From a virus: a stretch of DNA of 64,000 nt. Position 1 is the first letter of the stretch, and each line of letters starts with the position of its first letter. The stretch lies in IMG/VR virus record IMGVR_UViG_3300049893_002454, positions 32,001 through 96,000 of that record. One strand, written 5' to 3'. The position numbers and the translations under genes are program-made. The notes below the pieces were generated by a model that saw nothing but the letters and a program-made list of their open reading frames with translations, was not told the origin of the DNA and ran no database searches. This document shows positions 37,699-57,350 of the stretch, piece by piece.

Positions 37699-38451
37699 AT
37701 GGATCTCAAAGAATTATTAAATTTAATCTCCGAAGTGGCAGACACTCATGGAATCAGAGCTCCTCACATCGTTGGAGGTATTCCCCGAGATATCTATATG
37801 GGCTTACTCGAGGACTTAAATGACATCGATCTGACTAATGGAGATAGCAGCATTTCTCGTTTGGCCGATCTGATAGGGGAGCGATTAGGAGTATCGCCTG
37901 CAACTCTTGCAGATGGACATAAAAAGATTAGATATGGTAGATTCTCTATAGATTTTTCTACAAATCAGATATACGATAATATTGACCAGTTGCTTATTGC
38001 TAGAGGTATGACTGTCGCAAACGATATGGTACGAGAAACCTTCTCGCGTGATTTTACAATAAATACCCTAATGGTGCCTTTAGATTTCTCTAAGATAGTC
38101 GACCTTACATCTATGGGAAAGTATGATATAGATCATAAAGTAATTAGGTGTCCTGTTGATCCACTTACTGCCATGACCTCGTCACCAAATCGTATAATTA
38201 GAGCATTTTATTATGCCGCTAGATATCGTATGTCAATAGATGACGACCTTAAGAAAGTTATAAAAACAAACCTTCATCTATTAGAGCAGGTAAAGGAGAA
38301 ATACTCCTCTGATAAGTTGGCGGCTGCTATAAAGCATGATGCTAATATACTCAATGATCTTATTGAGTTGGGCGTGCTACAGAAGATTAAATTAACCAAG
38401 GAGATGACTGAGCAGCTTATTCAAAAGCGCCGTTTGGTCGATATATTATGA
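37699..38451 (+). CDS. class II tRNA nucleotidyltransferase / poly(A) polymerase family protein
   Basis: IVGGIPRD, DIDL, RDFTIN, DL..G..DI, P.RIIRAFYYAAR; short (250 aa), no HD domain. Confidence 0.88.
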   Translation: MDLKELLNLISEVADTHGIRAPHIVGGIPRDIYMGLLEDLNDIDLTNGDSSISRLADLIGERLGVSPATLADGHKKIRYGRFSIDFSTNQIYDNIDQLLIARGMTVANDMVRETFSRDFTINTLMVPLDFSKIVDLTSMGKYDIDHKVIRCPVDPLTAMTSSPNRIIRAFYYAARYRMSIDDDLKKVIKTNLHLLEQVKEKYSSDKLAAAIKHDANILNDLIELGVLQKIKLTKEMTEQLIQKRRLVDIL

Positions 38452-41018: not shown

Positions 41019-42881
41019 GTGGCAGTGTCAGCAAATAACGAGATTACTCTAAAACTCTTTAATAAGATCAAGAGCGAAATTTCCGTTCTTGATCCAGTTT
41101 CTTTTGCAGAAAATAATCTCACTGTAGATGGAAAACCTTTTCGTATGAGCGGAACCGGTTGGAAATTTATGGCCGATTTGTATCGTGAGGTAGCCGCACA
41201 AGCGTCGAATAAAAATGCCAAGCCAATGGTAATTTTGAAGGGAAGGCAGATAGGCGCCACTATACTTGCAGCTGTTTTATCATTATATTTTACTGCTTCA
41301 GGGCTATACGGCACTGGCCCGGATAGACCTCCTATGCGAGTATTGCATGTTTTTCCTACGCTAGGATTAATGTCTAAATATGCCAAAGACAAATTAGGCC
41401 CAATGGTTGCTGGATCTCAAGGTGGCTATATTAGCAGTCGATTGCTGAAAAATGATCCAAATGCAGTTAAAGTAGCTGGTACTGATGAGGCTATCGCAGA
41501 AAAGACCTTTTATGGGTATAACAAGCTTCGTATAGACGCCACTGGTGCTGATGGGGACCGTATCCGTGGTCTTTCGCAAGACGTTATCTTCATAGATGAG
41601 GCTCAGGATGTCAGTAAAAAGGCCATCGAAACTGCTGGTCCGATCCTAACATCATCACAGTATGGAGCCCCGACCAAAGGTATACAGTTATATTTTGGGA
41701 CTCCTAAAGGTACTGGCTCGCACTTCTATAACATATGGCAGAAGTCAGATCAGCGATTTTATCAACTAAAGTGTGTCGGATGTAATCACTTCTTTTTCCT
41801 ATACACTATGGGCAGTGACTCATGGAAGCAAGTTTGGGTATCAGGGCATGATGTACGTTGTCCGGAGTGTGGCACATTACAGAAGAAAGCCGATGCTATT
41901 GAAGGTGGCAGATGGGTTCCTACAAAGCTAGGTGATACGCAATATATTGGATACCATGTAAGTGTACTGCTGCATCCATGGTTTACTAAAGAAAATATTT
42001 TAGACTTAGATCCTGCAGTCAATCCAGATCGGCGAGAGGTGGCTTGGAGAAATGAGACTCTTGGTGAGTTCTATAGCGGCGGCGGCCTCACTATATCAGT
42101 AGATGATATTCGTGAAAACTGTTTTGATACCACCAGAGGCTTAGCCAAGACAATTCTTGACCGTGGTGATAAAACTATTGTTATGGGAGTTGACTGGGGC
42201 GGCAAGGATTTGGTTGGTCCGGGTGGCGATGAGGATGATATTTCTGTAGATAGCAAATCAGATGCCGGACAATCATATACAGCAGTAGTTATTATGAGTG
42301 TAGATAAGAGCGGTGTCTTTACAATCGAAAATGCATATAGATTAAAGCGCAATGATTTTGAATATAAGGTAAATATTATTTCAGAAATGTATCGCATATT
42401 CAAGGTGCAGAATGGGGCAGCTGATATAGGGTACGGTCAGGATATAGTACAACATATGCAGGGTCCTATGGGATTTGGGGAGCGATTCCTAGGCTGCATC
42501 AATAGCGGCACAATCAATAGTACTATATCATATAAACCAAAAGAGCTGCGTGTAGTCCTTAATAAAGATGCTTTAATAGAAGAAGTGTTCTCTATGGTGC
42601 GCAAGGGTAAAATTAGATTTCCTGTGCACGGTGAGTCCTATGATCGGATCGATTGGCTTATACAGCATTTTACCTCTATGGAGGTAAAGAAGGTTATCAA
42701 AAATGATAATGTATATAATAGATATGTGAAGGGTGCCGTACAGAATGACGGTCTAATGGCTACAATATATGCCCTTATTGCATATAAATTCCTAGCTACC
42801 AGTGGCTTTAAGGGAAGTGATTCTAAAGTCAAGGGAAAGGGCGCACCCAGACCAATTCTCGCGTATTTGCCTAAAATATAG
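41019..42881 (+). CDS. terL: terminase large subunit
   Basis: Walker A-like KGRQIGAT, RIRG...Walker B IFIDEAQD, coupling motif GTP, CxxC pairs, nuclease MGVDWG...DIGYG...NDGLMA; GGAGG RBS. Confidence 0.9.
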   Translation: MAVSANNEITLKLFNKIKSEISVLDPVSFAENNLTVDGKPFRMSGTGWKFMADLYREVAAQASNKNAKPMVILKGRQIGATILAAVLSLYFTASGLYGTGPDRPPMRVLHVFPTLGLMSKYAKDKLGPMVAGSQGGYISSRLLKNDPNAVKVAGTDEAIAEKTFYGYNKLRIDATGADGDRIRGLSQDVIFIDEAQDVSKKAIETAGPILTSSQYGAPTKGIQLYFGTPKGTGSHFYNIWQKSDQRFYQLKCVGCNHFFFLYTMGSDSWKQVWVSGHDVRCPECGTLQKKADAIEGGRWVPTKLGDTQYIGYHVSVLLHPWFTKENILDLDPAVNPDRREVAWRNETLGEFYSGGGLTISVDDIRENCFDTTRGLAKTILDRGDKTIVMGVDWGGKDLVGPGGDEDDISVDSKSDAGQSYTAVVIMSVDKSGVFTIENAYRLKRNDFEYKVNIISEMYRIFKVQNGAADIGYGQDIVQHMQGPMGFGERFLGCINSGTINSTISYKPKELRVVLNKDALIEEVFSMVRKGKIRFPVHGESYDRIDWLIQHFTSMEVKKVIKNDNVYNRYVKGAVQNDGLMATIYALIAYKFLATSGFKGSDSKVKGKGAPRPILAYLPKI

Positions 42882-44775
42882 GAGTAGATTTATAATGAAG
42901 AAAGATTACCACGATCAAATAAGCAGAGCTGAAGAGCAGGCTAAGAGATGGTCCGTTCCAGACTCTAGACAAAATGTTCTAGATCAAATGTATTACAATC
43001 AAGTGCAACGCCAATTAGGTATTCCTACTGATAGAATGCCTAAAACTTTTTTGCAAAAAAATGCTATTGCATCTACTGGATTAAATTCACTGAGTAGTGA
43101 ACGTAGAGAATATTTACAGGAATTAAATGATCGTGCAGAGGAGCATCCCAGACCAAATCTTGCATTAGCTGCTGGAATACGCAAGAATGCATCAGTTAGT
43201 ACTGGCGGGCTCGGCGGAACGCCAAATACTTCACATATAGGTCCAGAGCCATTTTCGCCACTGTTTCTTACACAAAATATGCAATTACCGAGAGATCGTA
43301 TTACGATGAATGCGTGGAATAGAGCATATTTTGAAACAAATCCTATTGTAAGAAATGCTATAACGCTACATGCAACATATCCAATATCAAAGCTACAGAT
43401 CAGATGTGATGATAAGAATGTAGAAAAGTTCTTTTTTGATATGTGCGATAGAATCGATTTAGAGAATGTGGTCCAGCAAGCTGCGATGGAATTCTGGAAG
43501 CTAGGAGAATGTTTCGTGTATGCGTCATTTGATGAGTCCACTAGATCATGGGATCAGCTATATCTTCACAATCCAGACTATATTCAAGTTGATGCTTCTC
43601 CGCTATCACCAAAAAATACAGTTATTCTATTAAGACCGGATGATGCATTGAGAAAGATCGTCTCCTCGGCCGACAGTCAATATGCGCGTCTGCGAGAGCA
43701 GCTCGACCCACGTATTGTTAATCATGTAATTAGAAATGAGATGATTCCACTAGATTCATTTAATATTAGTCACCTAAAGATGCTAAACTCTCCATATGAC
43801 TTGCGCGGAACATCTATTATCGTAAGCATATGGAAAGATCTTATGTTGTATGATAAGTATCGCGAGTGTAAATTTATTCAAGCCGACAGCATGGTGAATC
43901 CTCTTACATTAGTAAAGCTTGGCACTGATGGGGCGGAAGGATTTTACCCCAGACAAGAAGAGATTGATAATTGGCGTTCTATTATGGAACAAGCTCAGTT
44001 TGATCGAGATTTTAAAATTATAACTCATGGTTCTGTAGCTATAGAGCGGGTTGGTTCTGCAGGGCATACTCTCGATACTGCGGCCGATATCAATCAGATT
44101 ATGGACAATCTTTATACCGGACTGCAAGTACCAAAGTCTCTCTTAACTCAAGAAGGTGCATCATATGCTACTGCCTCTGTAGCACTTGATGTGATGAGGC
44201 AGAGATATAATAGTTTTAGAACTATGATCTCAAATTGGTTAGAGCGAAAAATCTTTGCGCCAATATCTGAGGCGCAGGGTTTTTATGATATCGTCGGACA
44301 AGAAAAGCGACTAATCATACCTAAAGTTGAATGGAATCACATGACGCTCTATGATCTCGATAATTACATAGCGCATCTGGCAACTCTTGTAGAAAAGAAC
44401 CGTGTATCAGTAAGAACACTAGATCGCAGCCTGGGACTTAGCCGAAAAAACGAATTGGCAAACATTCGCCAAGAAATGATTGAAGCAGCAATCGTAGCTA
44501 AGGAACAAGAGAATTTGTCAAAGATGACATTGTCTCAGCTTAAGAGCTTAAACCCAACTGAGCCTATACCGGAACCAACAGATAATGGTTCCGGCGGGGC
44601 CGGCGGAATGATGGGAGGCCTACCGGGCGTGCCACCACCGTTACCGGGAGGGGATATGGGCTCACTTGGCCCTCCACCTATTGGTGGTATGGACTTAAAT
44701 GCTCCGGCCCCAGCACCAATCGAACCTCCAGGAGGCATGCCTGGAGCCCCAACTCCGCCTGGACCATCAATGTGA
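42802..44775 (+). CDS. portal protein with a Pro/Gly-rich C-terminal tail
   Basis: Directly after TerL; NPIVRNAI, EFWKLGECF, HNPDYI, RGTSII, GLQVPKSLL..EGASYATA are portal-like; likely start ATG 42895. Confidence 0.8.
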   Translation: MALREVILKSRERAHPDQFSRICLKYRSRFIMKKDYHDQISRAEEQAKRWSVPDSRQNVLDQMYYNQVQRQLGIPTDRMPKTFLQKNAIASTGLNSLSSERREYLQELNDRAEEHPRPNLALAAGIRKNASVSTGGLGGTPNTSHIGPEPFSPLFLTQNMQLPRDRITMNAWNRAYFETNPIVRNAITLHATYPISKLQIRCDDKNVEKFFFDMCDRIDLENVVQQAAMEFWKLGECFVYASFDESTRSWDQLYLHNPDYIQVDASPLSPKNTVILLRPDDALRKIVSSADSQYARLREQLDPRIVNHVIRNEMIPLDSFNISHLKMLNSPYDLRGTSIIVSIWKDLMLYDKYRECKFIQADSMVNPLTLVKLGTDGAEGFYPRQEEIDNWRSIMEQAQFDRDFKIITHGSVAIERVGSAGHTLDTAADINQIMDNLYTGLQVPKSLLTQEGASYATASVALDVMRQRYNSFRTMISNWLERKIFAPISEAQGFYDIVGQEKRLIIPKVEWNHMTLYDLDNYIAHLATLVEKNRVSVRTLDRSLGLSRKNELANIRQEMIEAAIVAKEQENLSKMTLSQLKSLNPTEPIPEPTDNGSGGAGGMMGGLPGVPPPLPGGDMGSLGPPPIGGMDLNAPAPAPIEPPGGMPGAPTPPGPSM

Positions 44776-44778
44776 TGT

Positions 44779-45117
44779 ATGAGAATACCTAATGATATAC
44801 GCAATATTTCATTTAAGACATATCACGGTATAGGCAATGCTCTAGATTTTATTTGGCATACTTGTTGTGGCCGTCATGGCGATATTAAGCAGGCGGGTAA
44901 ATATATAGATATTCTCTCCGGGTGGCGTCTAACTATTAATAAAATGCGTATATATAGCTCACCCGAATTATCTCTCGCTGAGAGATTAAATTATAGTAGA
45001 GCTTGCAAAGATATAGATTCATTATTATTTAGGCTGAGCAGAATATCCGGTGCTCTACCGAAAAAGGTGACCGATGCTATTGAGTCGACGAGCGCAGATC
45101 CAGATCAAGGGGATTGA
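44779..45117 (+). CDS. hypothetical protein
   Basis: 112-aa ORF between portal and the TopIB fusion. Confidence 0.6.
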   Translation: MRIPNDIRNISFKTYHGIGNALDFIWHTCCGRHGDIKQAGKYIDILSGWRLTINKMRIYSSPELSLAERLNYSRACKDIDSLLFRLSRISGALPKKVTDAIESTSADPDQGD

Positions 45118-46396
45118 AGTATATAGTGCATCTTCTATATATGTGTTAGCAAAGCGCAAGTATGAAAAGAACTATACTAAGAAGATAAAGACTGATTCTG
45201 GCGAAGTGCGTATATATGATGACGCTCATATAGCAAAGCGATGGGAGAAGAAGGTAGGGCAAATCAGTGCCCTCAAAAAGAATTTACCAAAGCTACAGCA
45301 TAAGTATCGTGCAGATCTCAAGTCAGATGATCTTAAAATTCGTACTATAGCAGCAATAGTAGCTATCTTAGATCTTACTGCAATGCGCATAGGGAATGAC
45401 GGCTCAGTTGAAGATTTTGGGACATTTGGAGCCACTACTCTCAAAAAGAAGCATATAAAGATCAGTGGTAATACTGTTAAGTTCAATTTTCTAGGAAAGA
45501 AGAAGGTAGATCAGACATTTTCATTTACTGATGCTGGCGTTGCTAAAGTATTGAAGGAATTATTGAAGGGCAAATCCAACAATGATTTCGTTTTTGAATA
45601 TGAAGATGGAAAGCGTATCCGCGCCAAAGTAGTTAATCGTTATCTGGCCGCTTTCAATATCACAGCTAAAGACCTTAGAGGCTTTCACGCTAATCAACTA
45701 ATGCGCGATGAATTAAAGCATACTAAAGATTTCGAAAAAGCTCTAGAGCAAGTGTCAGATAGGGTGGGTCACGAGCCAAAGACGTTAATGAACCAATATC
45801 TAGATCCTGCATTAGTTAAGCGGTATAAAAAGGCTGCGCTTAGCCTTGCCGATTATATAAATTCAGAACTTTCAAGTATACTACAGAAACAGCCAAAATC
45901 AATGGCTCCATTATCGACAAAACCTAAGTCTAGTGCTCCAGGCAAGTCGACTCCATTACGTCCAGGAGAGCAGCTGGCAGGTGGGCAGAAGATTACTTCA
46001 CCATATGGTATGCGCACTCATCCGCGCACAAAGAAAAGGGTTCATCATGACGGCGTAGATCTACGCGCAGCAAAGAACACTGAAATCTTAGCTTATGATG
46101 ATGGCATAGCTGTATTCGCCGGTAGAGGTAATGCTTATAGTGGAAATATGGTGACTATTTTACATGGTCCGGATCAAAGGCTTGCAACTAAGTATCTTCA
46201 TTTGAATAAAGTTCTGGTGTCTCCGGGAGCAAGTGTAAGCAAAGGTCAGGTTATAGGTCTTGCTGGTTCCACTGGTAGAGTTACGGGAGCGCACCTTCAT
46301 TTTGTTATGGAATATGATTCGCAGGTCATAGACCCAACCCCATACTTAAAAGATCGTACTGTAGTAGGAGCAATGCATGCCAGGGAAGCTGTCTAA
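45074..46396 (+). CDS. DNA topoisomerase IB fused to a C-terminal M23 metallopeptidase
   Basis: TopIB pentad: MRIGND, FLGKK, KDLR, VGH, NQYLDP, plus TFGATTL; M23: ITSPYG.R..P, HDGVD, YLHL, GSTG..TGAHLHF. Confidence 0.9.
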   Translation: MLLSRRAQIQIKGIEVYSASSIYVLAKRKYEKNYTKKIKTDSGEVRIYDDAHIAKRWEKKVGQISALKKNLPKLQHKYRADLKSDDLKIRTIAAIVAILDLTAMRIGNDGSVEDFGTFGATTLKKKHIKISGNTVKFNFLGKKKVDQTFSFTDAGVAKVLKELLKGKSNNDFVFEYEDGKRIRAKVVNRYLAAFNITAKDLRGFHANQLMRDELKHTKDFEKALEQVSDRVGHEPKTLMNQYLDPALVKRYKKAALSLADYINSELSSILQKQPKSMAPLSTKPKSSAPGKSTPLRPGEQLAGGQKITSPYGMRTHPRTKKRVHHDGVDLRAAKNTEILAYDDGIAVFAGRGNAYSGNMVTILHGPDQRLATKYLHLNKVLVSPGASVSKGQVIGLAGSTGRVTGAHLHFVMEYDSQVIDPTPYLKDRTVVGAMHAREAV

Positions 46397-46622
46397 GACC
46401 GATGAAAAGAAATGGCGTAAAGCCAAGCACATTGTACGTAAACAGAAGGGTTCTAAGCAATCTAAATTCACTGATCGCGACTGGGGTCTAGTTACTCACA
46501 TATTTAAGAAACAGAAGAAAGCCGCAATAGTAGATGCGCTGTATGTAATTGCAACAGCATTTGATGCTATAGATGATACCCTGTCAGCAAATTGTATTGA
46601 TGATATTTTGGAGAATATATGA
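46377..46622 (+). CDS. small basic protein with a C-terminal A-x-x-F-D helical motif
   Basis: 81 aa; AGGAG RBS; coupled to both neighbours. Confidence 0.7.
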   Translation: MPGKLSKTDEKKWRKAKHIVRKQKGSKQSKFTDRDWGLVTHIFKKQKKAAIVDALYVIATAFDAIDDTLSANCIDDILENI

Positions 46623-49600
46623 AATATAGCAGCATTGTTAGTGACCTGATCCGACGATTCTCATCCCTAGATATTATAATAGAGCCAGAAGAGAGTGCTG
46701 TACGCGAAGCTGTGAATAAGCTAATTGGATCAAATCCAAAGTATTTCGAAGGCGTTAAGAAAGTTGTCGTAGAGCATGACGTTCCACATTCTCCATATTT
46801 AGGAAAGTCTACTGGAGAGGGTATTATCTATATTTCATTAGATGCGATAAGAAATCAGCTCAAATCTCAAGGCGAAGAGCACAATCAGCAGGCTTTTATT
46901 CATGAACTGGTTAAGACTCTTGGACATGAGGTGGCTCATATCCGTGGCGGCATGGAGCACACTGAAGGGCCATCGGAAGTCGAAGAGCAAGTCTTAGAAC
47001 AGAAGTTTCCAATGCCAGCATTAAAACGAGAGGCTGCTGACTTAACAGACAAGCAGAGGAGAGCTATAGTACTGCAGAAAGAGATCGCTGCACTACAGGG
47101 GCAATTAAACCAGATTCAGACGGTATGGAAGCAACTTACTAAGCCAGGTATCAAGGTAGACCCCGCGCGCGAAGTTCATTTTAAAGCAGAACAGGATAGA
47201 ATTAATAATGAAATAACTGCCAGGCGCTCAGAAATAGAATCTCTTGAAAAATTGGAACAAGCAGTTACCAAAGAAACGATATCTGATGAGAAGGCGGCTC
47301 CTAAATCACCAGCAGTTACAAATGTTAATGATCTGGCTAGATATGGCCCGCTATTTAAAGATTTAGCTGCATCACTAGGCAGCGCATTATCTGGTCTAGT
47401 AAAGCTATATCAGCTCTTAAATGGAGCTCCGGATTTCGTCAAAGGAGAGGGTAAGATTTTACCAAGGATGAAAGAAGTAATCTCTTCCACGGACGCTTTA
47501 TATAAAAAGATGTCATCGCGTATACAGGCTCATACGGATGCACCTCATCTTCTTAAAGAATTAGCATTGGAAATATTATTTGAAGAAACTAGCGAATCGC
47601 TACTTGATACTGGTGATTTCCTAACATCAGAACAGGATTTTATTACACCGCTGACGAATCAAGGAGTGGAATCAGATTTTTATAAAAATGCCATTGCTCC
47701 TTTAGTTAATGAAATACTAGCATCAATAACTAGAGCTGCTGCAGTTGTTGGTTCAGAGCATAAATCAATTCTTCAGATTCCAGAGTTGTCTACTTCCAAG
47801 TTGCCATCGGCACAAAAGAATATAGGTAAACCTCAGCGAGAGACAAAATCTCACGGCGAGCGCACGCTCTCTACAATACGAGAAGATTATCTTAATGAAT
47901 TTAGTGGATTGACTGATAAATTAGAGGGGGCTCGGCGCCTTTGGAAGAATACTGCGGACCAGTCAAAATTAGCCCCGCTTTTAACAAGGAAGGACCAGCT
48001 TGAGGCTGAGTTGCAAATAGCTAAGCAAGAGTTGTCCGATGCATTTGCTGATGTAACCGCGCTTAGTGGCACTCCACGAACAAAGGAGCAGGCGGCAAAA
48101 CAAAGAGCCTCTAGCGAACGATATCAGATGGCGAAGAGACGCGTAAAAGATGCTGAGGATGAACTCAGCGCACTAAAGACCAAGATATCATCTCTATATG
48201 ACACTAGCGCTGTAAATGCAGATGACCTAATTGCTGCTATAGCGCCTTATTCTAACGTTGCTAGCGTAGAGGCAAGACTAAAGACTGTTTCTGAAAAACT
48301 AGAGCAGTTTAAGCTACTTGATGAATATAAGCGCCAACTTACCGAGCGACGCGAAGAACTGCTATCAAAGTCCAAGGAATTAGGCGAGGGCAATCCAGAT
48401 GTCAAAGCACTGACTGCTCTTGTTGAAGTTAGCCTCCCTAAACAGATAGCTGAGATAGAGGGTGACTTGGGAGCATCTTCTTCCCCAAAATCACGTGAAA
48501 AAGATCCTAATGAAAAACGTATAAGGGATGATATTAAGGCGAATACTAAATTACTTAATTCACCATTGGTACGATCTATTTTTGATAAGCTTATGCCAGA
48601 TATGGCTAGTGGCGGAGATCTTCGTACACAAAAGAAAAATCTTGAGAGAAAAATCAAGGTTCGTACACAAGATGTTGCTCCTGAAACTGATTATGATGAG
48701 CTGAAGGGAGTATTACCAGCCGATGTAGAAATTTCTACATGGCAGTCCCAGATAGCAGATGTCGATAGGGATATTAAATACAGAAAGCGTACTGAGATAA
48801 TAGACTATATTGGTCGTTTAGGTCAGGCATTGTCTGCAATTGTTCAGCGAGCTGCTGGTAAATCCGATGTGGCTATTCCTACAGATATATTAGGCAAGTC
48901 ATTACGCCTCGGCAAATACATTGGTGCTGATGGCAATGCTAAGATTATCAGAGACTTAGAAAGCGTCGTAAACGCAAATATGAAGGCTGTTGGACCTATA
49001 GAGGCAGAATTAGGTAAGTTGCGCGATGAACTTGCTAATATCAAACGCTCACCAAAAAAAGACGAAGTTAAAGCTGAGCGACTAAAGGCTAAGTATAAGT
49101 ACCTTTCTGAGCAACCGGCTTTCAAGAAACTTAGATCAGATATCTCTTCGACAATAGAGAGACTAGTACAACATACTAGTCCAATTGTCACAGAGGAGGT
49201 ATCTCAGCCAAAGATAGTTACTGAGAGAGAGGATGCTCCTGATATTTCTGATAAACTACGTCGCAGGCGCGAAAAAGAGGAGCGGAATATCGCTAAGGAG
49301 TTTGGTTGGAAAACTGAGCTGCCTTCTCAGGAAGAATCAACTAAATTTCCCGAATACGACGAGCGATCTAAGGCTGTTTCTAGACAATGGGAAGCACCGG
49401 AGCCGCTGGGCAAGTCTACACTAACAAATGCTATAAAGCAGGATATAGAACGAGGTTTGATCGATCCGACAAAAATTCCTTCAGATGTACGCAAGCAGTT
49501 GTTAACTCAACTTCACGCCACCTCGGGAGAGTTGCGTTCAATAAAAGAACGCCTCGTAACTCCAGATGCAGAGTTGGCAGATTTACAAAAAGAGGAAGCT

Positions 49601-51466
49601 GCGTTTAGGCTAGATACTTCGGTTGATCCTGATTTTAATAATAAGCGTATTGAACAAAATATGGCCAAGCAGGAGTCTCTACGGCGTTCGTCCGCTAAAC
49701 TACGAGAGCAGGCTAAGCGGCTTCATGCTGAGATTAGCAAAATTCGTGATGTATTGAAGGATCCAGAAAAATATGTACGTGGCACAGGCGAATTAGAAAA
49801 AGATTTGGAGAAGCAACTAGAGCGACAAGAAGCCAGGCTGTTGCATCAGTATAAACTAGAAGATAGTATTAAAAAGCTTAGAGATGATCTCCTATATGCA
49901 GACCCATTGCAGCTTAAGAATATCCAGAAAACTATTGCTATCCAAGAAGCTGAACTTAAATCCGTAATTAAGGAGATTGCAGAGGCAGATGCCAGCATTG
50001 ACAGGACTACGCGCCAATTAAGTTCCGCCCGCAAAAAACATAGCACTGAAAGTGATAAGCCTTCGCCTATTAAGGAGAAGAGTGTACGTGTCTATGAGCC
50101 TACCGAGGAAGAGCGTGCTGCTGCTAAGCTACACAGACAGAGGTATGAAGCTGCTGTTGATAAATCTGTGGAAGAAAAGGCCAAGCGATATCGCGCTGCA
50201 GATGAGGCGGAGAGAAGGACGATAGCTGAGCGGCGCAAATTCGTTGATCCTAATAAACCGGAGAAGCAACTTCCGTCTACGCGTATGCTTAATGCCGCAC
50301 GGGCTATGCGCTATGCCTACAAGAAGGCCTTGGAGTTGAATCCTAAGGCAGCAACTTCGCGTGAAAGCAAAGTCAGAGATGCTCTCTACCGCCAAACTGA
50401 GCTAGATAATTATCTTCGCGTGCTAGACGACGAGTATTTAAAACAGGCTACTGAGCGTGCTTTATCAGAAACAAGTGATATTCAAGAGCAATTTAAATTA
50501 CGTACAAAATACTTAGATGAGTTGCATAAAGCGCCAGAATATACACAGGGCCTTGAAATGTTGCAGCAGGCAATGAATGATCTGGATAATGCTTCGATTA
50601 TAGATCGTCCGGAGGGAACTGCTGCTCTGGAGTCAGTTGTTGAGCCACGCGATATGGGTAAAGGTGTCGGGAGAGTGCGTGGAAAGCCGGAGCGTATGTT
50701 AGGTGCGAAGGATCCGTACATGTTATTCTTCCGTGCTCAATATGAGGCCGAAATAGCTTTAATGCGCTATGAAGAAGCAGCTAAGGCCAAGAAGCACTTG
50801 GATAAGGTGGCAGCTAAGGCTAGAAAGGATGCTTCTGATGCGGGGTTGGACGAAAAGCAGATTAATGAGACTGTGGACAGGGAGTACAATGAAATGTTGG
50901 GCGGCATTATGGCAGCACAATATGAATCACTCTCTAAATTTGATAATATTGTTGATAAATTAAAGGAAAGCACTCAAGGTAAAAAACCAACTGTATTTTT
51001 TGATCCTACCAAAGTAGAATCATATCTAAAGGACCTTGCAGACAAGCAGGCTGCTGCTGTTCATGAAAAGGAATTAGCAAGACGTTTTATTCAGGTACGG
51101 GAAATACCATTGCTTACGGCAGGGACATTCGACCCGGATCGCTATCCGAAATTACTTGCTGCTGAATTTAGCGATGAGATGCCTCCAATGTCAGAACTGG
51201 CACGCCAACAACGTGGTGGCGAAGGGGTATACAAGAAGTTGCGATATGTCCTGCCACATCTATTGTGGGGACAAACTACACCAGGAAAGAAGGGCAAAAA
51301 GGGTGAAGGGGCAGCTGATGTACCTGCCGAAGTTGCGGGATTGCAAGAATCGCCATTTACTGAAGCTGTAAAGAAGCGCTATACGCCAGCCCCAATCAGA
51401 CCAGGTGGTAAAGGTCAGCGTGGACAAAATGTACCTCAATTCATGCAATCAAAGAGTCGGAGCTAA
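46619..51466 (+). CDS. large (1615 aa) coiled-coil protein with an N-terminal HExxH zincin-like domain
   Basis: TLGHEVAHIRGG...E near aa 100; remainder is charged and helical. Confidence 0.8.
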   Translation: MKYSSIVSDLIRRFSSLDIIIEPEESAVREAVNKLIGSNPKYFEGVKKVVVEHDVPHSPYLGKSTGEGIIYISLDAIRNQLKSQGEEHNQQAFIHELVKTLGHEVAHIRGGMEHTEGPSEVEEQVLEQKFPMPALKREAADLTDKQRRAIVLQKEIAALQGQLNQIQTVWKQLTKPGIKVDPAREVHFKAEQDRINNEITARRSEIESLEKLEQAVTKETISDEKAAPKSPAVTNVNDLARYGPLFKDLAASLGSALSGLVKLYQLLNGAPDFVKGEGKILPRMKEVISSTDALYKKMSSRIQAHTDAPHLLKELALEILFEETSESLLDTGDFLTSEQDFITPLTNQGVESDFYKNAIAPLVNEILASITRAAAVVGSEHKSILQIPELSTSKLPSAQKNIGKPQRETKSHGERTLSTIREDYLNEFSGLTDKLEGARRLWKNTADQSKLAPLLTRKDQLEAELQIAKQELSDAFADVTALSGTPRTKEQAAKQRASSERYQMAKRRVKDAEDELSALKTKISSLYDTSAVNADDLIAAIAPYSNVASVEARLKTVSEKLEQFKLLDEYKRQLTERREELLSKSKELGEGNPDVKALTALVEVSLPKQIAEIEGDLGASSSPKSREKDPNEKRIRDDIKANTKLLNSPLVRSIFDKLMPDMASGGDLRTQKKNLERKIKVRTQDVAPETDYDELKGVLPADVEISTWQSQIADVDRDIKYRKRTEIIDYIGRLGQALSAIVQRAAGKSDVAIPTDILGKSLRLGKYIGADGNAKIIRDLESVVNANMKAVGPIEAELGKLRDELANIKRSPKKDEVKAERLKAKYKYLSEQPAFKKLRSDISSTIERLVQHTSPIVTEEVSQPKIVTEREDAPDISDKLRRRREKEERNIAKEFGWKTELPSQEESTKFPEYDERSKAVSRQWEAPEPLGKSTLTNAIKQDIERGLIDPTKIPSDVRKQLLTQLHATSGELRSIKERLVTPDAELADLQKEEAAFRLDTSVDPDFNNKRIEQNMAKQESLRRSSAKLREQAKRLHAEISKIRDVLKDPEKYVRGTGELEKDLEKQLERQEARLLHQYKLEDSIKKLRDDLLYADPLQLKNIQKTIAIQEAELKSVIKEIAEADASIDRTTRQLSSARKKHSTESDKPSPIKEKSVRVYEPTEEERAAAKLHRQRYEAAVDKSVEEKAKRYRAADEAERRTIAERRKFVDPNKPEKQLPSTRMLNAARAMRYAYKKALELNPKAATSRESKVRDALYRQTELDNYLRVLDDEYLKQATERALSETSDIQEQFKLRTKYLDELHKAPEYTQGLEMLQQAMNDLDNASIIDRPEGTAALESVVEPRDMGKGVGRVRGKPERMLGAKDPYMLFFRAQYEAEIALMRYEEAAKAKKHLDKVAAKARKDASDAGLDEKQINETVDREYNEMLGGIMAAQYESLSKFDNIVDKLKESTQGKKPTVFFDPTKVESYLKDLADKQAAAVHEKELARRFIQVREIPLLTAGTFDPDRYPKLLAAEFSDEMPPMSELARQQRGGEGVYKKLRYVLPHLLWGQTTPGKKGKKGEGAADVPAEVAGLQESPFTEAVKKRYTPAPIRPGGKGQRGQNVPQFMQSKSRS

Positions 51467-53349: not shown

Positions 53350-53514
53350 ATGGGATTTATTAAATACTCTGTATTAGAATTAGGGGTCGAAGAGACCCTT
53401 CCAGGTTGGATTAAGCAGTCCAGTAAAGCAGAATCTGAAGTGAAGGACGATGACCTCGAGACTGCTAATAAAAGTTTAGATGATGATAGTGAAGAAAATC
53501 AAACCAAGGAATAG
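53350..53514 (+). CDS. 54-aa acidic hypothetical protein
   Basis: Translated by eye MGFIKYSVLELG...EENQTKE; AGGTG RBS; exactly fills the gap before the protease gene. Confidence 0.55.
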   Translation: MGFIKYSVLELGVEETLPGWIKQSSKAESEVKDDDLETANKSLDDDSEENQTKE

Positions 53515-56500
53515 TGATGGCTATTAAAAAGATTGCGTTTAGTGATCAACTACATATATCAAATATAGTTTCTTCAGATGTTGTAGAGGCAGAAGCCGAT
53601 ATTGTAAACCGATTTAAGGAAATTGTTGCGTCCTTGCGAGATGAGCAAGAGCGTATCAAGGTCGGTACCAAGATTGCACCTAAAGTAGAAGACTTTATCT
53701 ACTGTCATGCTATACAGATGCATGCTGCTGAAGCAAATCTTGTTGGTGAGGACAGCGGTGAGTTTAGGAAGAATTCCCGTGGTGAGCCAGTACGAGGACA
53801 TTTTGAATCAGTAAAGGATGGGCGTGGTTCAGATTCGGTAAAGTGGGTTAGTCCGGATGGAATCCAGCTCTATAAGAATGCTAATGGCGATATTTTCCCA
53901 GAAGAAGATCTTATTAAATCGCATAAAGAATGGGTAGGTAAGCCTCTATGCAAAGATCATATAAGCAGCAGCGTAGATGGAATTCGCGGTATTATAGTTG
54001 ATACTTTTTATGATAACCGCTTCAAACGTGTCCATGCATTATTTGCTTTAGATAAGAAGAACTATCCTGAACTTGCTCGTAAAGTTGAAGCCAATTATGC
54101 AGTTAATGTCTCGATGGGCACAGCAGTAGGCAGATCTATTTGTACCGAATGTGCAAATGTAGCGACCACAGAGTCTGAATATTGTCATCATGTCAAATCA
54201 AAATCTAATTATGGTGAAATAAATAAGGATCTCAAGCCCATAGAGCTTAGCTTAGTGGTTGTGGGTGCTGACCCGCGTGCGAAAGTGCGTACTGTACTAG
54301 CTAGCTTTAATAATTATTTTATGCAAAAGGCGGCGGCTCTTGCTGATTCTTTAGAAGAAAGCGTAGAACCGACATCAATATCAAAAAATCTTAGTGTATC
54401 CGAAGTTATAGATTTACTTGGAGCACTGAACCAAGAAAGTGAAAAATATGCCGAGGTCATGCGTCATATTTCCACTATGAAAAATCATGAGCTGCGGGAG
54501 CTCGTGCTTAAATTGAAGTCAATGAAAGATCCTACATTAACAACTGTCAAAGATACTATTGGAGAGTTGTTAGCTGAACGATACATGGCTTCTCCCCCTC
54601 CCGCGCTTGATATTAATAATGCAGGACGCCCAACAGGTACGGCCACTCAGCCTGATTTAGGATCTGCAGCAGCAACCGGACATGACTTAGCCGGGACAAG
54701 CTTAAATACTGAGATAGGTGAGGATCCTATTTCTATGGTAGATAAGGTCGTAGGAGTTTCACGAACTCTTCCAGATCCTAATAGTGGTATAGCAACGGCA
54801 TCGGCTATTTTATCAAATTTTACTGATAGTTCTGACACCGATGTCAATAACAATTCTTTGCACAATAGATTTGCAATGTTGCAGAAGAAGGAGATTCCAA
54901 TGAATTTTGCAGAGTTACGTAAGCGTGCAGAAGCGCGCAAACAAGCGTATCACCAGGGCACAGAAGACCCAGCGAAGGCACTTCCGTACGATAAAATGGG
55001 TGACGCAGATAAGATCCGAGACACACAGGATAAACAGATGGTTGGTGATGAGCTTGATACCTCATCCGACATTCCCGCCGAAGATGCTAAGAAGAAGGAT
55101 ATTCTTCAGCGCGCTTCACTTGAAGAGCGTCGAGCTAAGCGAGCTAAGCTCCTTGAGGCACTTACCAAGCAGGCCGATTCAGCTAAGCCTGGCAATGTAG
55201 AGGAGAAGACTGACTCTCTCGGTCGTAAGGTTATGGTCGCCACTAAACCAGATGGCTCAAAAGAGGTATTGAAGGCTGATGATGAAGCCGGCACTGTTGA
55301 GAAGAAGGCTTTCTGGCAAGGAACAGAAGAGCCTACCCCTGGCAAGACCAGATATCCTCTGATGGGTGAATCACATGATAGCATGCGTGCCAAAGACAAG
55401 CAAATGAATGGCGTTGTCGAGACTGGTGCAGATGGCCTTTTCCCTGGAGATGAGCAGCTGAAGAAATCACTGCAACGCTCAGCGTCCATCAAGGCACGTC
55501 TTACAAAGAGCGCTACGCCAGGAAAGAGCACGTGGAAATTTTTTGCAGGTAATGATGAGATTCTTACTGTAAAGGCTTCTTCGGCATATGAAGTTGGCTT
55601 AGATGAGCCCGTACAAAATACAGCCCATCTCTCGCAAGACGGCAATGACCTTGTAGCTGATGACTTTTTCAAAACTGATGTTTATGCAAAGGAAGTTATG
55701 AAGCTCATCCGTTCTGCTGGTCTTGAGAAAGCAGCAGAGACTTTAGGTGGTGAGTTACCTCCTCCGCCAGCTGCCCCGCAAGCAGCGCCAGCACCAGCAG
55801 TGCAGGAATCGCCTGCTGATGCTGCTGGGGAGCAGGAGAAAGATGCTAATGATAAGATCGTAGAGGCACTCGCCTCGATCGAATCCGCTGTTGAAGAAAT
55901 TCGCAATGCAGCTAATATTGAGGATCTGAAGCAGGTAGATGTTTCATCTGAAGGCGCTGCGGTTACAGCATCATTCCGTACTCAGCTATTTAAAGTACAG
56001 GCGGAGCTAGCATCGGCAGCTGACGAACTAGCTACTTTATCAGAATCTGCTGTATCAAGCGCAATCGTTGACGAGGCTGTGTCTGACGCATTTACAGTTG
56101 CTACTGCAGCCGCCGATTTGCTAGATAAGTTTGCTGCAAAGAAAAAGAAGAAAAAAGATGATGTCAAGAAGATGAAGAAGGTAAAGAAGCTTTTTGATAA
56201 TAAGAAGCTTAAGAAGAAGGATGAAGATGAGGATGAAGATGAGGAATTGGAGAAGAGGGCAAGCGCTACACTTGCTGAGCTTCTGGCTGCCAGAGCAGCT
56301 CGTCGCGAGGCATTAGTAGCTAGAGCCGCTGATGACGGCAGTGAGTGGGAAGAGGTTACACGTCCAGAAATCCCATCATTACTAATGCAGCCTGATACTG
56401 AAGTTGATACCATTCCTGAACAAACAGAGGTTGATACTACTGCATTAGACGATGGTCTCGATGCTGCCGAAGAGTTAAGTGAAGCCCTGGAGGCATGGGA

Positions 56501-57350
56501 CGCTGAAGACGCTGCATTATCCGCTAAGGATAAGGGAGATGTTGAAGGTCCGCTTAGCAAAGAAGAGGAAGATGAAGTTGCTGAGATAGCCGACGAAGAG
56601 GTTGATGAGCACGAAAAGGAGATGCATGCTGATGATGGCCTCTTAGATCGCAAGGCCTGGAGAGCGTCTCTTCTAAAGAAGATTGCTGGCGAATGGCAGT
56701 CTACGTATTCAGAAGCTCGCAAAGGTGCCGGTCCAGAAGTTAGCGTTGATGCTAATGTATCAAATAAGCTTAACAAGGTCGAGACTCTGGCCGAGGTTAA
56801 GGATGCTATGGAAGATGTAGCTCGTTCTGAGCCGCGTAATGTACGCATGGCTGCTGAGACCCTTGATCGAATGATTCGTGCCGGGGCCGTTAAAGCAGCT
56901 CAACTCAATGAACTTGTTGCTAAGGGGGCTGTAGATGCTGAAGCCGCCAAATACTGGAAGGAGTATTTTGGTCAGACTGATGGTGGTAGCGAATTCGCTG
57001 CTGGCTTAACACAGGAATTCAAGCAGGCTAAGGCCAGCCTTGACGTTAAGGCATCAGTGGAAGAGCAAGAGGCTAAACTTATGCGCGCTTACAATCTTGC
57101 TCTTGAGGCTCAGGAACGCGGCCTTATCCCAAGGTCACGCACTGAATTACATCGCTTTGCTTCTAATATGGTTAAGTTGCCAACTGAGCAATTTGAAGCA
57201 ATGAAGAATATGATTGGCCAGGCACGCAAGGTAGATGAGCACGTTAAGACTGCCGCTCCGGTAGTTGGACTTAACTACGATCGTGCGCCAGCAGTAGCTC
57301 AACAGCCAGATGATATTTCAGTAGAGGGCTTGACTAAGCTCTTCTTCTGA
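53514..57350 (+). CDS. prohead (capsid maturation) protease fused to a long scaffold-like region
   Basis: N-terminal NANGDIFP, GKPLCKDH, GIIVD, VSMGT, C..C...C.H Zn insert, ELSLVVVGADPRA are typical of phage head-maturation serine proteases; C-terminal 800 aa are acidic, Ala-rich and helical. Confidence 0.8.
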   Translation: MMAIKKIAFSDQLHISNIVSSDVVEAEADIVNRFKEIVASLRDEQERIKVGTKIAPKVEDFIYCHAIQMHAAEANLVGEDSGEFRKNSRGEPVRGHFESVKDGRGSDSVKWVSPDGIQLYKNANGDIFPEEDLIKSHKEWVGKPLCKDHISSSVDGIRGIIVDTFYDNRFKRVHALFALDKKNYPELARKVEANYAVNVSMGTAVGRSICTECANVATTESEYCHHVKSKSNYGEINKDLKPIELSLVVVGADPRAKVRTVLASFNNYFMQKAAALADSLEESVEPTSISKNLSVSEVIDLLGALNQESEKYAEVMRHISTMKNHELRELVLKLKSMKDPTLTTVKDTIGELLAERYMASPPPALDINNAGRPTGTATQPDLGSAAATGHDLAGTSLNTEIGEDPISMVDKVVGVSRTLPDPNSGIATASAILSNFTDSSDTDVNNNSLHNRFAMLQKKEIPMNFAELRKRAEARKQAYHQGTEDPAKALPYDKMGDADKIRDTQDKQMVGDELDTSSDIPAEDAKKKDILQRASLEERRAKRAKLLEALTKQADSAKPGNVEEKTDSLGRKVMVATKPDGSKEVLKADDEAGTVEKKAFWQGTEEPTPGKTRYPLMGESHDSMRAKDKQMNGVVETGADGLFPGDEQLKKSLQRSASIKARLTKSATPGKSTWKFFAGNDEILTVKASSAYEVGLDEPVQNTAHLSQDGNDLVADDFFKTDVYAKEVMKLIRSAGLEKAAETLGGELPPPPAAPQAAPAPAVQESPADAAGEQEKDANDKIVEALASIESAVEEIRNAANIEDLKQVDVSSEGAAVTASFRTQLFKVQAELASAADELATLSESAVSSAIVDEAVSDAFTVATAAADLLDKFAAKKKKKKDDVKKMKKVKKLFDNKKLKKKDEDEDEDEELEKRASATLAELLAARAARREALVARAADDGSEWEEVTRPEIPSLLMQPDTEVDTIPEQTEVDTTALDDGLDAAEELSEALEAWDAEDAALSAKDKGDVEGPLSKEEEDEVAEIADEEVDEHEKEMHADDGLLDRKAWRASLLKKIAGEWQSTYSEARKGAGPEVSVDANVSNKLNKVETLAEVKDAMEDVARSEPRNVRMAAETLDRMIRAGAVKAAQLNELVAKGAVDAEAAKYWKEYFGQTDGGSEFAAGLTQEFKQAKASLDVKASVEEQEAKLMRAYNLALEAQERGLIPRSRTELHRFASNMVKLPTEQFEAMKNMIGQARKVDEHVKTAAPVVGLNYDRAPAVAQQPDDISVEGLTKLFF

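What the first reader, a model, noticed from the sequence alone, without database searches (positions are those of the whole stretch)
45074..46396. Topoisomerase IB fused to an M23 peptidoglycan peptidase inside the head gene cluster
Seen: one ORF with an intact TopIB catalytic pentad (R, K, R, H, Y) followed by YKKAA (about 45824-45838), a Ser/Pro/Lys-rich linker and a complete M23 domain (HxxxD, HxH). It lies two genes after portal and begins MLLSRRA. Established: TopIB acts on DNA, whereas M23 enzymes cut peptidoglycan cross-links, so the two act in different compartments. Inference: this is a virion-loaded polyprotein that is split at K-K-A, giving a wall-piercing enzyme and a topoisomerase for the packaged or ejected genome. 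I do not recall this fusion being described.
Basis: partly seen in the sequence, partly recalled or inferred. Interest (0 to 1): 0.78.

Follow-up and report, generated by a model that had tools for sequence, protein, structure and literature searches.

The report
Phage head-module topoisomerase IB–M23 peptidase fusion
An uncultured giant phage encodes, two genes after its portal gene, one conserved protein that joins an apparently active DNA-relaxing enzyme to an apparently active cell-wall peptidase, most likely cargo carried in the virus head and released at infection.

Summary
ORF 45074-46396 (440 aa) has a type IB topoisomerase catalytic domain (R105, K142, R202, H233, Y242), a disordered S/P/K-rich linker and a complete M23 peptidase.

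It is not an assembly artefact. Twenty-seven other 90%-identity protein clusters, down to 40% identity, carry both domains. Four viral contigs keep the order TerL, portal, small ORF, fusion.

The record is a 125-kb fragment of a giant phage, 34% complete.

The main new point is that this TopIB clade is almost never a stand-alone enzyme. Of 142 TopIB-bearing representatives, 6 stand alone and 69 are at least 800 aa. Partner domains include 2H phosphoesterase, ART-PolyVal, LigD_N, CCA-type nucleotidyltransferase, HD, SET and VanY. A portal homologue lies within 10 kb in 41 of 80 loci.

I read the protein as a minimal "polyvalent" protein in the sense of Iyer et al. 2017, loaded into the head. 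Packaging is inferred, not shown. Cleavage at K-K-A is neither shown nor excluded.

I found no paper describing a head-module TopIB. This scan noted the same architecture before on other DNA (e1-5339923, e1-5339917).

The parts
45074..46396 (+). TopIB-M23 fusion ORF, 440 aa from ATG 45074. The alternative start GTG 45143 gives the 417-aa call on record.
45146..45832 (+). TopIB catalytic domain, residues 25-253. Pentad: R105, K142, R202, H233, Y242. The Tyr242 codon is at 45797-45799.
   Evidence: Pfam hit. Invariant in 24 of 24 rows. Aligned to 2f4q and human Top1. 3m4a Z 22.1.
45824..45838 (+). Y-K-K-A-A, residues 251-255: the end of TopIB homology and the candidate processing site (unproven).
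   Evidence: K252 and K253 are conserved in at least 90% of rows. Most tblastn matches of distant relatives end at residue 251-253. Motif statistics.
45833..45973 (+). Residues 254-300. A conserved amphipathic, mildly acidic helix (about 255-272) is followed by a variable S/P/K-rich linker.
   Evidence: pLDDT below 50 over 254-259, 264-266 and 271-287. Length and sequence vary in alignment A1. Composition.
45974..46363 (+). M23 (LytM-type) metallopeptidase domain, residues 301-430. HxxxD at 325-329, H376, HxH at 407-409.
44779..45117 (+). Conserved 112-aa ORF between portal and fusion. It overlaps the ATG-45074 reading by 44 nt.
   Evidence: Homologues are at the same place in L001 (64%) and L002 (43%). 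No Pfam or PHROG hit.
46377..46622 (+). Conserved 81-aa ORF with a basic N-half and an acidic C-terminal 30 residues (net -7). It overlaps the end of the fusion and the start of the next gene, so the three are probably translationally coupled.
   Evidence: Homologue in L001 (64%). An 81-aa ORF in L001 and a similar 92-aa ORF in L004 directly follow the fusion.
46619..51466 (+). 1615-aa protein: an N-terminal cap of about 130 aa with HExxH, then a long charged helical region. It is a candidate internal or ejection protein, or a processing peptidase.
   Evidence: HEV[AT]H is conserved in L001 and L002. No Pfam family; only a weak tape-measure PHROG hit.
42802..44775 (+). Portal protein
   Evidence: phrog_16240, E 9.5e-48
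41019..42881 (+). Terminase large subunit
   Evidence: phrog_675, E 3.2e-60; Pfam GpA_ATPase
53514..57350 (+). 1278-aa protein with an N-terminal region like a prohead protease (residues 122-231). It marks the downstream end of the portal-to-protease interval.
   Evidence: phrog_18299 head maturation protease, E 4.8e-10; phrog_2774
37699..38451 (+). 250-aa CCA-type nucleotidyltransferase. The same domain is fused to TopIB in polyvalent relatives.
   Evidence: phrog_2244, E 3.7e-18. PolyA_pol is fused with TopIB in L013, L028 and L079.

Best explanation
This is a real, conserved bifunctional protein of an uncultured giant phage. It is the smallest architecture of a large family of TopIB-carrying multi-enzyme ('polyvalent') proteins encoded in phage head modules.

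Inferred mechanism:
1. The protein is made late, translationally coupled with the 81-aa and 1615-aa neighbours.
2. It is loaded into the prohead near the portal and leaves the capsid with, or ahead of, the DNA at infection.
3. The zinc-dependent M23 domain cuts peptide cross-links of the host peptidoglycan and opens the way for the ejection apparatus.
4. The TopIB domain needs neither ATP nor a metal. It nicks one strand through a 3'-phosphotyrosyl link at Tyr242, lets it swivel and reseals it. This relaxes torsional stress in the very long incoming genome, or prepares it for early transcription, as the topoisomerase packaged in poxvirus cores does (recalled).

Shown here: both domains and their catalytic residues, the fold, conservation of the fusion, head-module synteny, and the polyvalent relatives.

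Inferred: packaging, ejection, both enzyme activities, and the substrate of the TopIB.
For: - Domains and residues.
- Folds: TopIB Z 22.1 and LytM Z 18.9.
- Conservation: 27 other clusters carry both Pfam domains at 72-40% identity, from JGI, ENA, Logan and NCBI sources.
- Synteny: TerL, portal, small ORF, fusion, and further on the protease in L001, L002 and L004; L003 ends soon after the fusion.
- Tree of 145 TopIB domains: the 28 M23-fused rows, one VanY-fused row (P0030) and one 248-aa row form one clade (SH-aLRT 97). Its sister group (support 99) is 12 proteins of 691-2156 aa.
- Within that clade the M23 is replaced once by VanY, another peptidoglycan peptidase. This suggests selection for a wall peptidase behind the TopIB.
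- Partner domains of close TopIB relatives (48-55% identity) are typical of injected polyvalent proteins: 2H/LigT, ART-PolyVal (28.7 bits, below the 31.2 cut-off), LigD_N, PolyA_pol, HD, SET, SprT-like and inteins.
- Of the 142 TopIB-bearing representatives among the best 150, only 6 stand alone. Median length is 785 aa.
- A portal homologue lies within 10 kb in 41 of 80 viral loci, always on the same strand, at a median of 3.4 kb. A homologue of the protease N-terminal region is present in 32 of 80.
- The fusion has no signal peptide or transmembrane segment (maximum 19-residue hydropathy 1.53), so the M23 cannot reach the wall through Sec.
- Precedent: cyanophage A4 gp28, part of the pre-ejectosome inside the capsid, has an M23 domain (PDB 9k2v; PMC12002296 passages).
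- Junction: a 26-kb contig at word depth 50 covers it without differences in run X1, which may be the source. Identical 151-nt pieces tile 45783-46148 in two other studies.
Against: - There is no proteomic, structural or biochemical evidence that this protein, or any TopIB relative, is in a virion.
- The one structural proteome I read (PaBG, 14 bands, PMC7412058 passages and Table 1) lists no topoisomerase.
- 39 of 80 loci showed no portal homologue within 10 kb at E 1e-5.
- No other wall hydrolase (SLT, Phage_lysozyme, Amidase_2) was found in the 125-kb record. The M23 could therefore be the lysis enzyme, although the record is only 34% complete.
- ART-PolyVal, SprT-like and LigD_Prim-Pol hits in relatives are below Pfam's gathering scores.
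Confidence: 0.6

Rival explanations
1. First reader's version. The protein is a polyprotein cut at or next to Y-K-K|A-A by the prohead protease (53514-57350) or by the HExxH cap of the neighbouring 1615-aa protein. This would give a free TopIB and a free linker-M23 inside the head.
For: - K252 and K253 are conserved in at least 90% of 24 rows, directly before a variable region.
- The motif [KR][KR][AGS][AST] lies 8-31 residues after the catalytic Tyr in 40 of 124 non-redundant TopIB proteins. In control windows of the same proteins it occurs in 56 of 3515 (1.6%). The peaks are at +10 (this family) and +21.
- Several proteins in which TopIB is C-terminal end about where the motif would lie.
- A protease-like domain and a conserved HExxH cap are encoded close by.
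- Iyer et al. 2017 propose processing of polyvalent proteins by embedded zincins (PMC5512222 passages).
Against: - Positional conservation in homologues may simply be part of the domain.
- Stand-alone TopIBs have K-A-[AS] followed by only 10-12 residues of helix before the stop, so nothing useful would be released.
- The AF2 model runs one helix, 245-270, through the site.
- The motif is not enriched in the window's proteins overall (10 seen, 10.1 expected).
- N4 virion RNA polymerase and A4 gp28 are packaged unprocessed or as one chain.
- The specificity of this protease is unknown. No solved relative was found by sequence.
Confidence: 0.25
2. The protein is not packaged. It is a late cytoplasmic protein. 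Its TopIB half serves as a swivel for replication or for terminase-driven packaging of a genome over 300 kb. Its M23 half is the phage's lysis enzyme, released through holin lesions.
For: - Iyer et al. 2021 (PMC7824862 passages) treat the phage-specific Topo I of phiRSL1, Lu11 and PaBG as part of DNA-topology management.
- No other peptidoglycan hydrolase was found in the record.
- PHROGs label several M23 families as 'endolysin'.
- The gene lies next to the packaging genes.
Against: - The gene sits between portal and protease, not in a lysis cassette.
- A replication or packaging swivel has no evident reason to be fused to a wall peptidase.
- Nor, in relatives, to ART, 2H phosphoesterase, CCA-type nucleotidyltransferase and other effector-type domains.
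- The record is 34% complete, so a separate endolysin may lie outside it.
- The 'endolysin' PHROG that matches best after phrog_7767 is a 2898-position profile, which is a giant virion-type protein.
Confidence: 0.15
3. Artefact: an assembly chimera, or read-through of a lost stop codon between two genes.
For: None found. The record is a metagenomic assembly.
Against: - The same two-domain order is present in 27 other clusters at 72-40% identity from four data sources and in four viral contigs.
- The linker varies in length but always stays in frame.
- Contigs of the run that may be the source (depth 50), and identical 151-nt pieces from two other studies, cover 45783-46148 with no differences, joints or loose ends.
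Confidence: 0.01

Closest known systems
Phage-type polyvalent proteins (Iyer, Burroughs, Anand, de Souza, Aravind 2017, J Bacteriol, PMC5512222; abstract and passages read)
   Same: - Two or more domains of unrelated biochemistry sit in one polypeptide.
- The gene lies beside the portal/terminase genes of a tailed phage.
- There is a wall-degrading domain, predicted to breach peptidoglycan at entry.
- A zincin-like HExxH module lies nearby.
- Relatives combine the same TopIB with 2H, ART-PolyVal, nucleotidyltransferase and other domains named in that paper.
   Different: - In the main text of that paper 'M23', 'LytM' and 'recombinase' have 0 occurrences, and 'topo' occurs only in a reference title. 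TopIB is therefore not among the domains it discusses. Its supplementary files could not be seen.
- This protein has only two domains and no MuF, portal or MPTase domain of its own.
Poxvirus and bacterial type IB topoisomerases (variola 2h7f, Deinococcus radiodurans 2f4q/3m4a)
   Same: Catalytic-domain fold (Z 20.4 and 22.1) and the R-K-R-H-Y pentad. Recalled: vaccinia TopIB is carried in the virion core and aids early transcription.
   Different: It lacks the N-terminal DNA-clamping domain of 80-90 residues. Only about 11 residues follow the Tyr helix before the linker. It is fused to a peptidase. It is encoded in a phage head module.
Cyanophage A4 gp28, the pre-ejectosome protein (PDB 9k2v; PMC12002296, passages read), and the T7 gp16 type of ejection protein (recalled)
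   Same: A peptidoglycan hydrolase domain (M23 in A4 gp28) is carried by a protein stored inside the capsid on the portal axis and released at infection.
   Different: A4 gp28 has helical bundles that build the ejection channel and has no DNA enzyme. The fusion here has no long helical part. The neighbouring 1615-aa protein might supply that.
Phage-specific Topo I of jumbo phages phiRSL1, Lu11, PaBG, Motura and NCTB (Iyer et al. 2021, PMC7824862, passages read), and the 668-aa 'topoisomerase' of Xanthomonas phage PhiXhv-15
   Same: A TopIB catalytic domain in giant phages. In PhiXhv-15 the domain is at 29.5% identity, sits in the C-terminal part of a 668-aa protein, and lies 2.7 kb upstream of a 'head-tail connector protein'.
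   Different: That paper describes it as a DNA-topology enzyme, not as head cargo. There is no M23 fusion.

Membership tests
Type IB topoisomerase catalytic domain (Pfam PF01028) | Profile score above the curated cut-off | tested here: met
   102.8 bits against 23.7, E 2.3e-29, residues 58-281. Found again on the genome record, E 4.0e-31.
Type IB topoisomerase catalytic domain (Pfam PF01028) | Catalytic pentad Arg-Lys-Arg-His/Asn-Tyr, in order, with His 9 residues before Tyr | tested here: met
   R105, K142, R202, H233 and Y242 are invariant in 24 of 24 rows. They align with the corresponding positions of 2f4q and human Top1.
Type IB topoisomerase catalytic domain (Pfam PF01028) | Catalytic-domain fold | tested here: met
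   AF2 pLDDT is mostly 86-97 over residues 61-230 (80-82 over 231-250). 3m4a Z 22.1, rmsd 2.4 A over 197 residues; 2h7f Z 20.4.
Type IB topoisomerase catalytic domain (Pfam PF01028) | Relaxation of supercoiled DNA through a 3'-phosphotyrosyl intermediate | not testable with these tools
   Needs a plasmid relaxation assay, with and without Y242F.
Full-length two-domain TopIB enzymes of poxviruses and bacteria | N-terminal beta-sheet DNA-binding domain of about 80-90 residues that closes the clamp | tested here: not met
   Only about 32 residues (25-57, with a beta-hairpin at 34-48) precede the catalytic domain. The 3m4a alignment starts at chain residue 88.
Peptidase family M23 (LytM-type) | Profile score above the cut-off and the fold | tested here: met
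   90.2 bits against 28.7. LytM 2b13 Z 18.9, rmsd 1.6 A over 122 residues.
Peptidase family M23 (LytM-type) | Zinc ligands and catalytic residues: HxxxD, an internal His, and HxH. These are degenerate in the inactive EnvC/NlpD type. | tested here: met
   H325-D329, H376 and H407-x-H409. Aligned to ShyA 6ue4.
Peptidase family M23 (LytM-type) | Hydrolysis of peptidoglycan cross-links | not testable with these tools
   Needs a zymogram or muropeptide analysis.
Phage-type polyvalent proteins (Iyer et al. 2017) | At least two domains of disparate biochemical activity in one polypeptide | tested here: met
   A DNA topoisomerase and a peptidoglycan peptidase.
Phage-type polyvalent proteins (Iyer et al. 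2017) | Encoded by a portal-terminase phage in the context of virion genes | tested here: met
   TerL, portal, then two genes on, with protease/scaffold downstream. The order is syntenic in L001-L004.
Phage-type polyvalent proteins (Iyer et al. 2017) | Linked through shared domains to the polyvalent domain network | tested here: met
   TopIB relatives at 48-55% identity carry 2H/LigT, LigD_N, DUF5661 and PolyA_pol above cut-off. ART-PolyVal scores 28.7 bits, below its 31.2 cut-off.
Phage-type polyvalent proteins (Iyer et al. 2017) | Packaged in the virion and delivered into the host with the DNA | not testable with these tools
   No cultured carrier of the fusion was found: 0 of 679 matching phage records cover at least 80% of it, and no relative was confirmed in GTDB representative genomes.
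Endolysin (lysis-cassette peptidoglycan hydrolase) | Encoded with holin or spanin genes and acts from within at the end of infection | tested here: inconclusive
   The flanking genes are the portal, small conserved ORFs and a 1615-aa HExxH protein. No transmembrane segment in the protein. No other hydrolase was found, but the record is 34% complete. Holins were not searched for.

The most novel reading that the evidence does not exclude
TopIB is a widespread and so far undescribed head-cargo enzyme of tailed phages, especially giant ones. It would be loaded at the portal as the leading module of multi-enzyme proteins, held inactive in the capsid, and released on the leading part of the genome at infection.

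- Candidates for the inhibitory element are the conserved acidic helix or segment that follows it in cis, or the small partner with an acidic C-terminus.
- In this phage the enzyme is tethered to an M23 peptidase. One molecule would then first open the wall and afterwards relax, or covalently pilot, the entering DNA.
- This would be a bacterial-virus counterpart of the topoisomerase carried in poxvirus cores.
Probability: 0.3. Interest if true: 0.8.

Novelty: new variant of a known kind. Interest (0 to 1): 0.6.

Why it matters
Enzymes carried inside phage heads decide the first seconds of infection. Apart from N4-type RNA polymerases, T4 Alt and the P1 Dar proteins (recalled), few are known.

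A topoisomerase that needs no ATP or metal suits work in a capsid or on a genome that has just entered. Its regular placement beside portals of giant phages suggests that DNA topology is managed during ejection or packaging of very long genomes.

The family is large. 233 representatives at 50% identity match at E 1e-30 or better, and 142 of the best 150 carry the domain. I found it in no paper.

It is directly testable by virion mass spectrometry and relaxation assays. The compact 440-aa fusion is the easiest member to express.

Tried and rejected
- Assembly artefact or lost stop: rejected.
- Tyrosine integrase or protelomerase instead of TopIB: rejected. Phage_integrase scores 20.2 bits, below its 27.1 cut-off, against 102.8 bits for Topoisom_I. 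All top structural matches of that half are TopIBs.
- Nucleotide similarity to deposited phages: none for 41019-46396.
- Host inference from prophage copies: 29 pattern matches in GTDB representative genomes, none confirmed. The host stays unknown.
- Solved relatives of the protease-like N-terminus (53514-54560) and of the HExxH cap (46619-47140): only chance-level hits.
- Homology between the HExxH cap and the SprT-like C-terminus of the L009 TopIB protein: none (BLASTP E 0.83).
- Window-wide enrichment of [KR][KR][AG][AST] as a protease motif: none (10 seen, 10.1 expected). The sites in 39450-40370 and 46377-46622 are conserved in orthologues, but this does not show cleavage.
- A small acidic ORF directly after every TopIB gene, a lead from earlier notes: not general in my 80 loci. 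It is seen only as the 81- to 92-aa partner of the M23-fusion family (window, L001, L004). An acidic stretch in cis occurs in about ten loci.
- The 'AHP' leader cassette from earlier notes: absent from the fusion.
- Virion proteomics of cultured TopIB-bearing jumbo phages: the PaBG table (14 bands) lists no topoisomerase. The 2026 jumbo-phage review mentions no packaged topoisomerase in the passages found.
- Small-share runs X2-X7: I draw no habitat conclusion from them beyond the three laid.
- Prediction of a complex of the TopIB with the 81-aa partner or the portal: not possible.
- Supplementary files of papers were closed. The domain list of Iyer et al. 2017 lies in supplements and may name TopIB or M23.
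Full report
What is there.

The window carries only +-strand genes of a phage. It lies in a 125,545-bp linear virus record that CheckV rates 34% complete, so it is a fragment of a giant phage.

ORF 45074-46396 encodes 440 aa. Pfam finds Topoisom_I (PF01028, residues 58-281, E 2.3e-29, 102.8 bits against a cut-off of 23.7). It also finds Peptidase_M23 (PF01551, residues 324-421, E 9.8e-26, 90.2 against 28.7). Phage_integrase stays below its cut-off.

The gene order is as follows:
- TerL, 41019-42881 (phrog_675)
- portal, 42802-44775 (phrog_16240)
- a 112-aa ORF
- the fusion
- an 81-aa ORF overlapping both neighbours
- a 1615-aa protein with an N-terminal HExxH cap
- three small genes
- a 1278-aa protein whose N-terminal part resembles prohead proteases

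Catalytic competence.

In an alignment of 24 family members, R105, K142, R202, H233 and Y242 are invariant. HMMER alignments place them on the active-site positions of Deinococcus radiodurans TopIB (2f4q) and human Top1.

The M23 motifs are all present: HxxxD at 325, H376, and HxH at 407-409.

An AlphaFold2 model built on the 24-row alignment has mean pLDDT 81. It shows two confident domains (about 50-250 and 295-430). The N-terminus (1-32) and most of 254-295 are disordered.

VIA-align gives bacterial TopIB 3m4a Z 22.1 (rmsd 2.4 A over 197 residues, model 57-255). Variola TopIB 2h7f scores Z 20.4 and LytM 2b13 scores Z 18.9 (1.6 A over 122 residues). Foldseek agrees.

The TopIB part is the catalytic domain alone. 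Only about 32 residues precede it.

There is no signal peptide or membrane segment.

The start codon is uncertain: ATG 45074, or GTG 45143, which is the 417-aa call on record.

Not an artefact, and not unique.

The word-indexed search of 5.8 billion proteins lists 28 clusters with both Pfam domains, the window's own included. Identity falls from 72% to 40%. The clusters come from JGI, ENA, Logan and NCBI sources.

A scan of IMG/VR returned 80 loci. Four carry the full fusion in the same order: TerL, portal, small ORF, fusion.

No deposited phage record holds the architecture: 0 of 679 matching records cover at least 80% of the query. Nothing there is similar at the DNA level. No relative was confirmed in GTDB representative genomes.

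Contigs of the run that may be the source cover the whole gene at depth 50 without differences. Identical 151-nt pieces from two other studies tile 45783-46148.

The wider family.

The other 76 viral loci hold only the TopIB domain, at 31-44% identity. The ORFs that carry it range from 242 to 3125 aa, and 33 of 80 are at least 800 aa.

Pfam finds these partners in the large ones:
- PolyA_pol, a CCA-type nucleotidyltransferase
- HD and SET
- a 2H-type phosphodiesterase
- DUF5661 and AAT
- an intein with LAGLIDADG
- a weak SprT-like zincin

A search for longer relatives found 11 proteins of 865-2156 aa whose TopIB is 35-55% identical to the window's. Two of them carry 2H/LigT and LigD_N. ART-PolyVal (28.7 bits, just below its cut-off) and a weak LigD Prim-Pol are also seen. 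P0030 has VanY where the M23 would be.

The exhaustive phmmer search of 1.84 billion representatives gave 233 proteins at E 1e-30 or better. Of the best 150:
- 142 carry the TopIB domain and 6 also carry M23, always behind the TopIB.
- Median length is 785 aa and 69 are at least 800 aa.
- Only 6 have no extension of 60 residues or more on either side.
- The TopIB is N-terminal in 70, internal in 58 and C-terminal in 8.

A portal homologue of the window's portal lies within 10 kb in 41 of 80 loci. It is always on the same strand, at a median of 3.4 kb. A homologue of the protease-like region lies within the locus in 32 of 80.

In a maximum-likelihood tree of 145 TopIB domains, the 28 M23-fused rows, the VanY-fused P0030 and a 248-aa row form one clade (SH-aLRT 97). 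Its sister (99) is a clade of 12 proteins of 691-2156 aa. The root is at the midpoint only. The quick method was used.

Reading.

These features fit the phage-type 'polyvalent proteins' of Iyer et al. 2017. Those are multidomain proteins of portal-terminase phages, predicted to be packaged and injected. They often carry wall-degrading domains and are often processed by zincins (PMC5512222, abstract and passages).

In that paper's main text 'M23', 'LytM' and 'recombinase' do not occur, and 'topo' occurs only in a reference title.

Iyer et al. 2021 mention a phage-specific Topo I in phiRSL1, Lu11, PaBG, Motura and NCTB under DNA topology (PMC7824862 passages).

Six further full-text searches found no paper on a head-module or virion TopIB of phages.

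An M23 domain in a capsid-held ejection protein has a solved precedent in cyanophage A4 gp28.

I therefore take the protein to be a minimal polyvalent head-cargo protein. The M23 would open the wall at entry and the TopIB would act on the phage genome. Packaging, ejection and both activities are inferences.

The one replacement of M23 by VanY inside the clade suggests that a wall peptidase is what is selected at that position.

Cleavage at K-K-A.

For:
- The two lysines are nearly invariant.
- Most distant tblastn matches end at residue 251-253.
- A dibasic+small motif is enriched about twenty-fold at fixed distances after the catalytic Tyr: 40 of 124 against 56 of 3515.
- Proteins with a C-terminal TopIB often stop about there.

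Against:
- Stand-alone TopIBs keep a similar K-A-[AS] followed only by a short helix.
- The model shows one helix running through the site, at low confidence.
- The motif is not enriched among the window's proteins.
- Comparable virion proteins are known that are not cut.

I rate cleavage at about one in four.

After the site comes a conserved amphipathic, mildly acidic helix with a pattern such as S-E-L-x-x-I-L-G. A similar acidic ending closes the 81-aa partner. About ten distant relatives have a strongly acidic stretch at the same place.

Earlier notes of this scan proposed an acidic 'plug' for portal-fused TopIBs. I could not test that here.

Rivals.

A cytoplasmic late enzyme, acting as a packaging or replication swivel plus endolysin, is not excluded. 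No other wall hydrolase was found in the incomplete record. It explains neither the fusion nor the effector-type partners in relatives.

Verdict.

It is a new variant of a known kind: polyvalent phage proteins with an undescribed TopIB-led family, of which TopIB-M23 is one recurrent compact architecture.

The same architecture was noted earlier by this scan on another genome (e1-5339923, e1-5339917). My tests were made independently on this window.

Noticed in passing
window 46619-51466: A 1615-aa protein with an N-terminal cap of about 130 aa bearing HEVAH, followed by about 1450 aa of charged helical sequence. The HExxH and a following P-S-E-[VI]-E-E are conserved in L001 and L002. No Pfam family and no solved relative by sequence. 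It is translationally coupled to the fusion through the 81-aa ORF.
   Followed up: partly
window 46377-46622: An 81-aa ORF with a basic N-half and an acidic C-terminal 30 residues (net -7). It overlaps the stop of the fusion and the start of the 1615-aa gene. It is conserved in L001, and a similar 92-aa ORF follows the fusion in L004. Its C-terminal I-D-D-I-L-type ending resembles the helix that follows the TopIB domain in family members.
   Followed up: partly
window 37699-38451: A stand-alone 250-aa CCA-type nucleotidyltransferase among the head and packaging genes (phrog_2244). The same domain is fused to TopIB in polyvalent proteins of L013, L028 and L079. Homologues lie near TopIB in 16 of 80 loci.
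   Followed up: partly
window 53514-57350: A 1278-aa ORF. Only residues 122-231 resemble a prohead protease. The remainder includes a Lys-rich and then an acidic low-complexity stretch near residue 880-915. Its N-terminal region is the most widely shared neighbour of TopIB after the portal (32 of 80 loci).
   Followed up: partly
L001 4872-7781; L002 1121-3406; L004 6555-9467: The TerL homologue of L001 and the portal homologues of L002 and L004 match in two pieces separated by about 0.5-1.1 kb. These may be inserted elements, such as inteins or introns, in packaging genes of relatives.
   Followed up: no
L028 4019-12436: A 2806-aa TopIB polyvalent protein that holds an intein with a LAGLIDADG domain inside or beside its PolyA_pol domain.
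   Followed up: no
L010, L015, L023, L052, L063, L071, L074, L075 (gene after the TopIB ORF); L029, L038, L066, L068, L073: Two recurrent conserved neighbours lie directly downstream of TopIB polyvalent genes. One begins with a basic stretch and then R-R-V-T-x-x-L-D. The other has a V-V-A-V-W-P-A-I-G-M-V-D-V core. Their functions are unknown. They are probably head-module proteins.
   Followed up: no
window 15378-20033: A 1551-aa DNA polymerase (phrog_405, E 7.5e-239) with a long N-terminal extension that matches an unknown-function PHROG (phrog_7513).
   Followed up: no
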